In this document: positions 37,697 through 40,600 of the stretch, piece by piece
Position numbering within the stretch: position 1 is the stretch's first letter
Layout: each line of letters starts with the position of its first letter
Origin: Eledone cirrhosa
Lineage: Eukaryota
Reading direction: 5' to 3'
DNA length: 64,000 bases
NCBI GenBank assembly: GCA_964016885.1
Contig: CAXHJY010000746.1
Coordinates: 1-64,000 of the forward strand
Made by a program: the position numbers and the translations under genes
Notes under the pieces: generated by a model
Seen by the model: only the letters and a program-made list of their open reading frames with translations
What the model was told of the DNA's origin: nothing
Databases searched by the model: none

Positions 37697-40600
37697 CACT
37701 GACAGCAAACTGAATTTCAGGAAAGCTGTTATTCAATTAACGACTAAAACACAGGTAAGTTGTCTTACCTGTGTATATATAGTCACTTACCTGTGTATAT
37801 ATGGTGTATATAGTCACTTATCTGTGTATATATGGTGTATATAGACTGTTACCTGTGTATATATGGTGTATATAGTCACTTATCTGTGTATATATGGTGT
37901 ATATAGTCACTTACCTGTGTATATACGGTGTATATAGTCACTTATCTGTGTATATATGGTGTATATAGACTGTTACCTGTGTATATATGGTGTATATAGT
38001 CACTTATCTGTGTATATATGGTGTATATAGACTGTTACCTGTGTATATATGGTATATATAGTCACTTACCTGTGTATATATGGTGTATATAGTCACTTAT
38101 CTGTGTATATATGGTGTATATAGTCACCTGTGTATATATGGTGTATATAGACTGTTACCTGTGTATATATGGTGTATATAGTCACGTATCTGTGTATATA
38201 TGGTGTATATAGTCACTTACCTGTGTATATAGTCACTTATCTGTGTATATATGGTGTATATAGTCACTTATCTGTGTATATATGGTGTATATAGTCACTT
38301 ATCTGTGTATATATGGTGTATATAGTCACTTACCTGTGTATATATGGTATATATACTCTTATCTGTGTATATATGGTGTATATAGTCACTTGTCTGTGTA
38401 TATATGGTATATATAGTCACTTATCTGTGTATATATGGTGTATATAGTCACTTATCTGTGTATATATGGTATATATAGTCACTTATCTGTGTATATATGG
38501 TGTATATAGTCACTTATCTGTGTATATATGGTGTATATAGTCACTTACCTGTGTATATATGGTGTATATAGTCACTTATCTGTGTATATATGGTGTATAT
38601 AGTCACTTATCTGTGTATATATGGTGTATATAGTCACTTATCTGTGTATATATGGTGTATATAGTCACTTACCTGTGTATATATGGTATATATACTCTTA
38701 TCTGTGTATATATGGTGTATATAGTCACTTGTCTGTGTATATATGGTATATATAGTCACTTATCTGTGTATATATGGTGTATATAGTCACTTATCTGTGT
38801 ATATATGGTATATATAGTCACTTATCTGTGTATATATGGTGTATATAGTCACTTATCTGTGTATATATGGTGTATATAGTCACTTACCTGTGTATATATG
38901 GTGTATATAGTCACTTACCTGTGTATATATGGTGTATATAGTCACTTATCTGTGTATATATGGTGTATATAGTCACTTATCTGTGTATATATGGTGTATA
39001 TAGTCACTTATCTGTGTATATATGGTGTATATAGTCACTTACCTGTGTATATATGGTATATATACTCTTATCTGTGTATATATGGTGTATATAGTCACTT
39101 GTCTGTGTATATATGGTATATATAGTCACTTATCTGTGTATATATGGTGTATATAGTCACTTATCTGTGTATATATGGTATATATAGTCACTTATCTGTG
39201 TATATATGGTGTATATAGTCACTTATCTGTGTATATATGGTGTATATAGTCACTTACCTGTGTATATATGGTGTATATAGTCACTTATCTGTGTATATAT
39301 GGTGTATATAGTCACTTATCTGTGTATATATGGTGTATATAGTCACTTATCTGTGTATATATGGTGTATATAGACTGTTACCTGTGTATATATGGTATAT
39401 ATACTCTTATCTGTGTATATATGTTATATATAGACTGTTATCTGTGTATAGAGTGTATATATAGACTGTGTATATATGGTGTGTATATACGGTGAATTTA
39501 GAGTTTCCTGCGTATATATAGTATATATATATATATAGCGTATATACACTGTTGTCTGTATGTAGATTTACTTGGGTATATATAAACTGTTACATGTATA
39601 TATAGATTGTGTATACACTGTTGTCTATATATATATATATATATATATATATATATAGTGTATGTAGCGTATATATAGTGTAGACGGTGTATATATAATA
39701 AATATATAATCATATGTGTGTATAGATATAGATATATATCCTAGCTGTGTATATATAGTGTGTACAATGTGTATATAACATATGTAGTGTATATATATAG
39801 TAGACATATAGAATCATAGGGTATGTATATATACATATGTATATATATATACATAGAATCAATGTTTGTAGTGTATATAACCTCATAGCCGTGTATATAT
39901 ACACTATGTATATATATATATAGTGTTTATATTACACATGTAGAAGTGTATCTACGTTTATAGTGTATATAGCATGTATGTAGATTCATACTAATGTATA
40001 TATAGCCAGCATATAATGAAACTTGTATATATACGCATATAACGTGCTGTGTGTATATATATAGCATATACGTAGTGTATATAAGCTATGTAAAGTGTAT
40101 ATATATATATATATATACATACAAGATATACAGTTGTGTGTATATATGTATATATATTTATACATACATGAAAAATAGCAATGGATGGAAACACTTGTTG
40201 AAATATATATATATATATATATATATATATATATACACACATATATATATATATATATACACACACATATATATATACACACACACATATATATAGATAT
40301 ACACACACATATGTATATATATATATATATATATATATATATATACACACACACATATATATATATATATATATATATATATATATATATATATATATAT
40401 ATATATATATATATATATAATTATATACACAAGCACCTTACAATATAATTGTAAATACATTAAGACGTAATCTACATTTTATTTATTGTGTATATATACA
40501 TACACACGTTATGTATATATAGATATATATATATATACATATATATACATATATATATACGTATATATATATACATACACTTGTTTAGACTAATTAATTT

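What the first reader, a model, noticed from the sequence alone, without database searches (positions are those of the whole stretch)
37749..39480. HID1 exon-1 donor sits in a hairpin and is followed by about 55 antisense (U1-like) copies
Seen: ACACAG|GTAAG-ttgt-CTTACCTGTGT (37749-37774) is a perfect 11-bp hairpin covering the 5' splice site. Its 3' arm recurs as a 31-nt minisatellite containing ACTTACCTGTGT or ACTTATCTGTGT (the latter still pairs through G-U). Known: the 5' end of U1 snRNA is AUACUUACCUG. Inference: the nascent intron presents dozens of U1-like competitors for its own donor, which could make intron-1 splicing depend on copy number or provide an ADAR substrate. On the minus strand it is an array of consensus CAGGTAAGT donors.
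Basis: partly seen in the sequence, partly recalled or inferred. Interest (0 to 1): 0.72.

Follow-up and report, generated by a model that had tools for sequence, protein, structure and literature searches.

The report
Mirror-image splice-donor minisatellite in HID1
In an octopus-like genome, the first splice signal of the HID1 gene sits in a perfect 11-pair fold-back and is followed by 56 repeats carrying its mirror image, yet the one transcript assembly found is spliced exactly there, so the array is likely a DNA-copying accident the cell tolerates rather than a splicing switch.

Summary
Real, but probably a passenger. The perfect 11-bp hairpin over the HID1 donor (37749-37774) and a 31-nt array of 56 antisense units are confirmed. 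Only 11 units carry the full U1-like 9-mer; 29 pair by G-U.

One RNA-like contig splices 37754 to 42697, and nothing from that run lies on the intron start.

Folding predicts that the donor is already about 89% paired by the first arm, so copy number adds almost nothing. No long ADAR-type duplex partner exists in the gene.

On origin: a minor unit variant (6 of 56) is shared with the TA-rich tail of a LINE subfamily at 13 other loci. The dominant unit differs from it at three bases, all three matching the inverted exon end and donor, which points to local template switching followed by amplification. A 12-nt match alone is expected about once per genome by chance.

The predicted hairpin (-16 kcal/mol) is stronger than U1 pairing (-12.1), so modest attenuation is not excluded.

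The scan's earlier notes describe one antisense array in a shark gene and many sense-orientation donor arrays in this genome.

The parts
35350..37693 (+). Upstream purine-rich tandem array (67-84 nt units, 31 copies of an ATG-containing head) whose last unit runs into the HID1 start codon
   Evidence: the RNA-like contig covers 37648-37688 of it
37689..37754 (+). First coding exon of HID1 (22 codons)
   Evidence: Pfam Hid1 positions 1-21; translation; RNA-like contig
37742..37746 (+). Exonic 5' strand of the predicted 5-bp hairpin extension; its inverse ends 45 of the array units
37749..37759 (+). 5' arm of the hairpin: exon -6..-1 plus donor +1..+5
37755..37760 (+). 5' splice site CAG|GTAAGT, used; joint strongest U1 match of the 18 HID1 donors read
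37764..37774 (+). 3' arm of the hairpin, which is also the first array unit (4-nt loop at 37760-37763)
37776..39487 (+). 31-nt TA-rich minisatellite, 56 units with the arm, antisense to the donor; the dominant head is unique to this locus; higher-order 11-12 unit blocks
   Evidence: (40 matches, all here; control 0)
37840..37862 (+). First LINE-tail-type (ACTG-head) unit; exact 23-mer also at 37964, 38026, 38146 and 39369, with a related unit near 39434-39447
39441..39640 (+). Degenerate 3' continuation of the array with only ACTG-type heads (39465, 39548, 39586, 39617), inferred to be the oldest layer
   Evidence: its alignment score to LINE tails is not discriminating
42691..42696 (+). Acceptor of the 4,942-nt intron (TTTCAG)
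42697..42910 (+). HID1 second coding exon, joined to 37754 in the RNA-like contig

Best explanation
This is an intronic minisatellite antisense to its own HID1 donor, likely made by template switching and tandem amplification, and likely a tolerated passenger, because the donor is still spliced. Step 1 (inferred): a TA-rich unit of the type found in a LINE subfamily's tail lay just downstream of the donor, with a chance 10-nt complement. Step 2 (inferred): that imperfect DNA hairpin was perfected by template switching on the exon end and donor, changing three bases. Step 3 (amplification shown by sequence, order inferred): the corrected unit amplified to 56 copies, and the commonest later variant pairs less well. 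Step 4 (predicted): in the nascent RNA the first arm folds over the donor. U1 likely binds in the short window before the arm is complete, or displaces it, so splicing proceeds, perhaps somewhat slowed, and independent of copy number.
For: SHARED UNIT. An exact 23-mer occurs 57 times in the genome, only here and at 6 LINE-tail loci; reversed control 0. The longest exact match is 30 nt. Informative 12-mers shared with LINE-tail loci reach 22, against at most 5 in 38 random 10-kb loci. DIRECTION OF CHANGE. 13 of 13 LINE-tail loci have the ACTG head and 0 of 13 the dominant HID1 head, which is unique to this locus. The three differences between the two heads all match the reverse complement of 37742-37760. 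ACTG units sit at both array edges and alone in the decayed flank. CHANCE MODEL per donor-array pair: 10-nt match 3.8e-4, 12-nt 3.3e-5, 12-nt plus a further 5-mer 1.5e-6. MECHANISM IN PRINT. Template switching converts imperfect to perfect inverted repeats (PMC5941160, passages). PASSENGER. The spliced contig is present and nothing from that run lies on 37755-37800. Pairing saturates with one unit. The commonest unit weakens pairing (-15.9 against -18.5). Donor-type hairpins are not enriched genome-wide: 5 against 5 control.
Against: No LINE 3' UTR remnant was found in the window, so a LINE-to-HID1 transfer needs internal priming, loss of the flank or DNA-level conversion. The flank alignment to LINE tails (68-173) overlaps unrelated TA-rich controls (up to 143). 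Arrays with a TTACCTG core also arise independently (L018, L078, L079, L083), so convergence is possible. The extra 5-mer criterion was chosen after seeing the data. The hairpin is predicted to be stronger than U1 pairing, and donor-sequestering stems cut gene output strongly in a yeast reporter (PMC12637734, abstract and one results section), so a real effect on HID1 output is not excluded. RNA evidence is one contig from one run, whose RNA status is inferred; contigs drop rare forms.
Confidence: 0.45

Rival explanations
1. The array was born at HID1 as a short fold-back (inverted) duplication of the exon end and donor. It was then amplified, and a LINE subfamily later captured a piece of this intron by template switching and spread it to at least 13 loci. 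The array is still a passenger for splicing.
For: Units read as the inverted exon end: 12-nt core, spacer, 5-nt tail. The first and one internal unit are only 22 and 20 nt long against the 19-nt inverse. No LINE flank lies at HID1. The TA segment is absent from 35 of 35 correctly oriented other LINE copies (36 read, one mis-oriented by the script), so the subfamily acquired it from somewhere. It has the same orientation relative to LINE and HID1 transcripts. Fold-back duplications of 5-34 bp are documented at breaks in yeast (PMC11724301, abstract).
Against: The decayed, presumably oldest, layer has only ACTG heads. This history needs three clustered changes away from the complement and then a rare capture of this particular intron.
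Confidence: 0.2
2. Pure coincidence: an ordinary TA-rich array happens to complement the neighbouring donor, with no templating.
For: 5 of 18 HID1 donors have an array starting within 60 nt. With an assumed 150,000-250,000 introns and 10-28% array-adjacent, a 12-nt match is expected 0.5-2 times per genome (rate). Weaker 7-8 bp versions occur at other likely donors (L125, L127, L131, L136/L137, L138). An unrelated palindromic repeat carries the same donor-like stem at three loci.
Against: The 12-nt core plus the in-register 5-mer is expected only 0.02-0.1 times per genome (post hoc criterion). All three differences from the LINE-type head fit the inverted exon.
Confidence: 0.15
3. A selected attenuator: the hairpin, backed up by redundant array units, throttles splicing of HID1's first coding intron (a detained intron, possibly temperature-sensitive), as donor stem-loops do in SMN2 and MAPT.
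For: The hairpin (-16.0; extended -19.2) is predicted to beat U1 (-12.1). The other 17 HID1 donors have perfect stems of at most 5 bp. The two commonest substitutions keep G-U pairs. There are precedents for stem-loop control of U1 access.
Against: Only the spliced form was seen. The donor is maximal, whereas the SMN2 and murine leukaemia virus cases act on weak or limited-complementarity sites. No copy-number effect is predicted. G-U retention follows from any C>T or A>G transition, and other variants break pairs. No conservation was shown: relatives' runs X5, X7 and X11 laid nothing.
Confidence: 0.13
4. Assembly artefact at the exon-array junction on a small unplaced contig.
For: No contig of X1-X3 covers 37685-37764.
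Against: The tool warns that holes prove nothing. The RNA-like contig matches 37648-37754 with 0 differences and ends at the GT. Short-read contigs cover the array units and the upstream array. The three-base head difference is locus-specific.
Confidence: 0.04

Closest known systems
Human F7 intron 7 37-bp VNTR (PMC1557585, abstract read) and amphioxus 'mirages' (PMC3087553, abstract read)
   Same: An intronic minisatellite that repeats splice-junction sequence of its own gene next to the authentic donor, which is still the one used.
   Different: Those are sense copies (pseudo-donors) whose first unit spans the junction. Here the copies are antisense, start at intron +10, offer no donor on the transcribed strand, and can pair with the donor.
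5' splice-site-sequestering stems: SMN2 exon 7 TSL2 (PMC1802598, passages), MAPT exon 10 stem-loop and the SMN2 intron 7 long-distance interaction (PMC7404189, passages), murine leukaemia virus donor (PMC2794156, abstract), designed yeast intron hairpins (PMC12637734, abstract and section 8)
   Same: A local stem that covers the U1-pairing bases and is predicted to compete with U1.
   Different: Those are probed and mutationally shown to regulate alternative or weak sites. Here the donor is maximal, only the spliced form was seen, nothing is probed, and the arm is the first unit of a 56-copy array.
Quasi-palindrome correction by template switching (PMC5941160, passages) and short fold-back inverted duplications (PMC11724301, abstract)
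   Same: Produces perfect short inverted repeats with small loops by copying one arm from the other.
   Different: Shown in bacteria and yeast systems. Here it is inferred from three matching differences, and the corrected arm was then tandemly amplified.
CR1/L2-type LINE 3' tails (clade assignment recalled from ORF2 C-terminal motifs seen; no library call supports it)
   Same: A TA-rich segment following the LINE 3' UTR at 13 loci shares unit variants with this array.
   Different: The HID1 locus has no LINE UTR or ORF remnant, and its dominant unit is absent from all 13 loci.

Membership tests
Splice-junction minisatellite (F7 IVS7 / mirage type) | Tandem units contain the gene's own exon-intron junction sequence | tested here: met
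   12-nt reverse complement of -6..+6 plus an in-register 5-mer
Splice-junction minisatellite (F7 IVS7 / mirage type) | Copies are in sense orientation (pseudo-donors) and the first unit spans the junction | tested here: not met
   All copies are antisense; the first arm starts at intron +10
Splice-junction minisatellite (F7 IVS7 / mirage type) | The authentic donor is the one used | tested here: met
   X4 contig joins 37754 to 42697; one run only
Splice-junction minisatellite (F7 IVS7 / mirage type) | Copy number varies between individuals | not testable with these tools
   No long reads or second assembly available
Regulatory 5' splice-site stem-loop (SMN2 TSL2 / MAPT exon 10 type) | The stem covers the U1-pairing bases | tested here: met
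   Predicted only: G+1 pairs with the arm at 0.93-1.0 up to 400 nt
Regulatory 5' splice-site stem-loop (SMN2 TSL2 / MAPT exon 10 type) | Acts on a weak or alternative donor | tested here: not met
   CAG|GTAAGT has the joint strongest U1 duplex (-12.1) of 18 HID1 donors
Regulatory 5' splice-site stem-loop (SMN2 TSL2 / MAPT exon 10 type) | Retention, skipping or attenuation is observed | tested here: inconclusive
   Only the spliced contig was found; contigs drop rare forms
Regulatory 5' splice-site stem-loop (SMN2 TSL2 / MAPT exon 10 type) | Structure probed; disrupting and compensatory mutations change splicing | not testable with these tools
   Needs bench work
U1 snRNA-derived sequence | Homology to U1 beyond the donor-pairing 5' end | tested here: not met
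   The genome's U1 shares 9 nt with the unit and then diverges; none of the 42 scored RF00003 matches lies on this contig
ADAR exon-intron editing duplex | Extended duplex between exon and intronic complement (typical length recalled as about 20 bp or more) | tested here: not met
   11-12 bp plus 5 bp only; no inverted informative 14-mer in 33000-60600
ADAR exon-intron editing duplex | A-to-G differences in RNA | tested here: inconclusive
   0 other letters in the X4 contig over 37648-37754; no raw RNA reads
LINE subfamily TA-rich tail segment | Shares the ACTG-head unit | tested here: met
   Exact 23-mer only here and at 6 LINE-tail loci; 30-nt exact match
LINE subfamily TA-rich tail segment | Flanked by the LINE 3' UTR | tested here: not met
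   blastn of the 141-nt UTR against the window: best E 0.29, far from the array

The most novel reading that the evidence does not exclude
A LINE-tail minisatellite was rewritten by template switching into a mirror image of a host splice donor (or was born there and captured by the LINE), and the resulting hairpin, with 55 back-up anti-donors, now throttles splicing of HID1's first coding intron in a temperature-dependent way: a repeat-made RNA brake on a maximal donor.
Probability: 0.12. Interest if true: 0.62.

Novelty: new variant of a known kind. Interest (0 to 1): 0.3.

Why it matters
As a passenger it is a curiosity with two uses. First, it is a natural case of a maximal donor spliced despite a predicted stronger 11-16 bp hairpin only 4 nt away, which makes the race between U1 and nascent folding testable in an animal gene. 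Second, it appears to record how a minisatellite unit gets rewritten by its neighbouring sequence and shared with a retroelement tail. If the hairpin does set HID1 output, it would be a repeat-derived splicing brake. Four literature searches touching on this arrangement listed no antisense-donor minisatellite in their titles or abstract starts; the library lacks most subscription papers, so this is not proof of absence.

Tried and rejected
(1) Local alignment of the decayed 3' flank to LINE tails looked significant against shuffles but not against real TA-rich DNA (controls up to 143 against 68-173). Dropped as evidence.

(2) Genome-wide enrichment of donor hairpins: 5 against 5 control. Three of the four other hits are centres of a palindromic repeat.

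(3) A pattern for a donor followed by two anti-donors gave 79 matches against 9 control. The excess comes from two tandem arrays (C20, C21) and long palindromes; about 15 loci in all. Those that look like real exon ends have 7-8 bp stems and 3-6 copies.

(4) A minus-strand gene using the array as sense donors: 29 of 56 units lack the GT on that strand, and no exon-like sequence was seen by eye at the array's right end. No transcript search on that strand was possible.

(5) Orthologue comparison: X5, X7 and X11 laid nothing at 80% likeness. This is no evidence of absence, and no related genome is held.

(6) DNA confirmation of the junction: X1-X3 leave 37685-37764 uncovered.

(7) A protein homologue search on the 22-residue exon was not possible; Pfam was used instead.

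(8) Derivation from U1 was rejected.

(9) Microhomology capture of the LINE segment through the donor match was rejected by reasoning: it would give sense, not antisense, copies.

(10) Earlier-findings look-ups near this window and by sequence returned nothing.

No supplementary files were read.

Full report
SETTING. The window is the first 64 kb of contig C773 of a 3.0-Gb assembly. Earlier scan notes call this genome octopus-like; I did not test that. The DNA is very repeat-rich: TRF gives 347 rows. A Pfam Hid1 search found 6 exon matches, all in this window (a stricter first look, so a floor). The exon at 37689-37754 matches Hid1 positions 1-21 and the next exon (42697-42910) positions 24-80, so this is the first coding exon of the only HID1 gene found.

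OBSERVATION. The stem at 37749-37774 is a perfect 11 bp with a 4-nt loop, predicted at -16.0 kcal/mol, and -19.2 with a further 5-bp stem between 37742-37746 and 37780-37784. The array has 56 units including the arm: 29 with ACTTATCTG, 11 with ACTTACCTG, 6 with an ACTG head, 4, 3 and 1+1 other variants, and the arm itself. The genome's U1 begins with the expected 11 nt, so 11 of 56 units match U1 positions 3-11. On the minus strand 11 units read as full consensus donors and 29 have lost the GT. None of the other 17 HID1 donors (positions read by eye) has a perfect stem over 5 bp within 80 nt.

READS. One search listed 23 runs, 4 holding half or more of the words of a HID1 exon; 7 different runs were laid. 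X4 (same species label, another sample; inferred to be RNA from its size and its GT-AG join) gives one 2,172-nt contig. It matches 37648-37754 with 0 differences and continues into exon 2. Nothing from X4 lies on 37755-37800. X1-X3 (one sample) cover array units and the upstream array but not 37685-37764; the tool warns that such holes prove nothing. X5, X7 and X11 (other organisms) laid nothing. So splicing at this donor is shown once; retention level, editing and the junction bases are not independently tested. The contig starts inside the upstream repeat, and no AG with a pyrimidine tract above 10 of 20 lies in 34701-37690, so 'exon 1' is plausible but not shown.

RNA MECHANISM. U1 pairs with the donor at -12.1 kcal/mol, the joint best of 18 HID1 donors; unit-donor duplexes range from -11.7 to -18.5. 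In growing transcripts the mean unpaired fraction of -3..+6 is 0.52 before the arm is complete and 0.11 once it is. It stays at 0.11 to 400 nt and is 0.08 at 700 nt. With the arm removed it is 0.04 with one unit and 0.035 with about 20. The array has no long inverted partner in 33000-60600: no informative 14-mer, and four 11-mers, two of them at the donor. An ADAR duplex beyond the 11-12 plus 5 bp hairpin is thus absent. How U1 wins is inferred: co-transcriptional capture in the roughly 15-nt window before the arm is complete, or displacement. Stable donor hairpins strongly lower output in a yeast reporter (PMC12637734, abstract and section 8), and strengthening TSL2 causes skipping in SMN (PMC1802598, passages), so partial attenuation remains open.

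ORIGIN, THE LINE LINK. A search with the exon and first units found the exon once and the array-like part at many loci (144 matches). Of 34 such loci examined (20, 13, 1), 13 carry a TA-rich segment that follows the 3' UTR of a 5'-truncated LINE and is usually followed by a second UTR copy. The CR1/L2-type label is recalled from the protein motifs. The segment is absent from 35 of 35 correctly oriented other copies of that LINE (36 read), so it marks a subfamily. An exact 23-mer occurs 57 times in the genome, only at HID1 and at 6 of these loci, with control 0. The longest exact match is 30 nt. Informative 12-mers shared with HID1 reach 22 in these loci against at most 5 in 38 random 10-kb loci. 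Against this, no LINE UTR lies in the window, the flank alignment is not discriminating, and unrelated arrays with a TTACCTG core exist.

ORIGIN, THE LOCAL TEMPLATE. The dominant HID1 head occurs 40 times, all here, and in 0 of 13 LINE-tail loci. The reverse complement of 37742-37760 is a 12-nt core, two T's and a 5-nt tail. The units are that core, a TA-rich spacer and that tail (45 units end with it). The dominant head differs from the LINE-type head at three bases, and all three match this inverted exon end and donor. LINE-type units sit at both edges of the array and are the only heads in the decayed flank, which suggests they are older (inference). The simplest history is a chance 10-nt quasi-palindrome perfected by template switching (mechanism: PMC5941160, passages) and then amplified. 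The alternative is birth by fold-back at HID1 (PMC11724301, abstract) and later capture by the LINE. The direction cannot be settled without orthologues.

CHANCE. Pairing 150,000 simulated donors with 126 real arrays in both orientations (80 from 380 kb of sampled DNA, 46 from the window) gave rates per pair of 3.8e-4 (10 nt), 3.3e-5 (12 nt) and 1.5e-6 (12 nt plus a further 5-mer). 5 of 18 HID1 donors have an array starting within 60 nt. Assuming 150,000-250,000 introns and 10-28% array-adjacent (my assumption), a genome should hold about 6-27, 0.5-2 and 0.02-0.1 such cases. The seed is therefore common, the 12-nt match alone is unremarkable, and the full match favours templating, with the caveat that the last criterion is post hoc. 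Donor-type 8+8 hairpins are not enriched genome-wide (5 against 5). A search for an AG|GTAAG donor followed by two anti-donors gave about 15 loci. Those that look like real exon ends have only 7-8 bp stems, so HID1 is the strongest of that pattern class found.

COMPARISON. It is the antisense counterpart of the F7 VNTR and amphioxus mirages (abstracts) and fails their sense-orientation criterion. It is shaped like SMN2 TSL2 and the MAPT stem-loop but sits on a maximal donor with no regulation shown. It is not U1-derived. Earlier scan notes, unchecked by me, describe sense donor arrays in this genome and one antisense array in a shark gene judged to be chance. Eight literature searches were run; none listed an antisense-donor minisatellite in titles or abstract starts.

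VERDICT. A passenger of some origin totals about 0.8 and a selected regulator about 0.13. New variant of a known kind; interest 0.30.

Noticed in passing
window 35350-37693: A purine-rich array directly upstream of HID1 ends in the start codon. Its units carry 31 ATG heads, and one unit read encodes a 13-codon upstream ORF. At least the last 41 nt are in the RNA-like contig, so the 5' UTR may contain many short upstream ORFs or the start site lies inside the array.
   Followed up: partly
window about 2100-21600: Exons of an IFT140 gene on the + strand (Pfam IFT140 beta-propeller and TPR domains). Several adjoining arrays appear to copy exon ends and donors in sense orientation (8256-8829, 11113-11455, 15601-17236).
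   Followed up: partly
window 47473-48187: An intronic 181-nt repeat (4 copies) contains sense copies of about 30 nt from the end region of the preceding HID1 exon.
   Followed up: no
L009-L013, L015, L016, L020, L025, L073, L074, L076, L077: A LINE subfamily whose 3' UTR is usually duplicated around a TA-rich minisatellite segment, which has itself expanded to about 40 units at one locus (L010). It looks like a captured or transduced segment.
   Followed up: partly
L029, L031, L032, L130, L133, L143: Long palindromic elements whose centres read as a donor-like motif and its complement, some with a tandemly duplicated arm. Family not identified.
   Followed up: no
L139-L141 (G000:C20:8763545-8764138): A 30-nt array in which each unit holds a donor-like motif and its complement on both strands.
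   Followed up: no
L142 (G000:C21:33140455-33274056): A satellite spanning more than 130 kb with self-complementary units; scattered variants read as a donor followed by anti-donors.
   Followed up: no
G000:C1128 and C2:169.4M, 180.97M: U1 snRNA genes in tandem arrays with about 2.67-kb spacing.
   Followed up: no
window 57040-57422 and 58866-59560: HID1 has long low-complexity coding stretches (acidic; Thr/Pro/Asn-rich) before the conserved C-terminal domain (read by eye).
   Followed up: no
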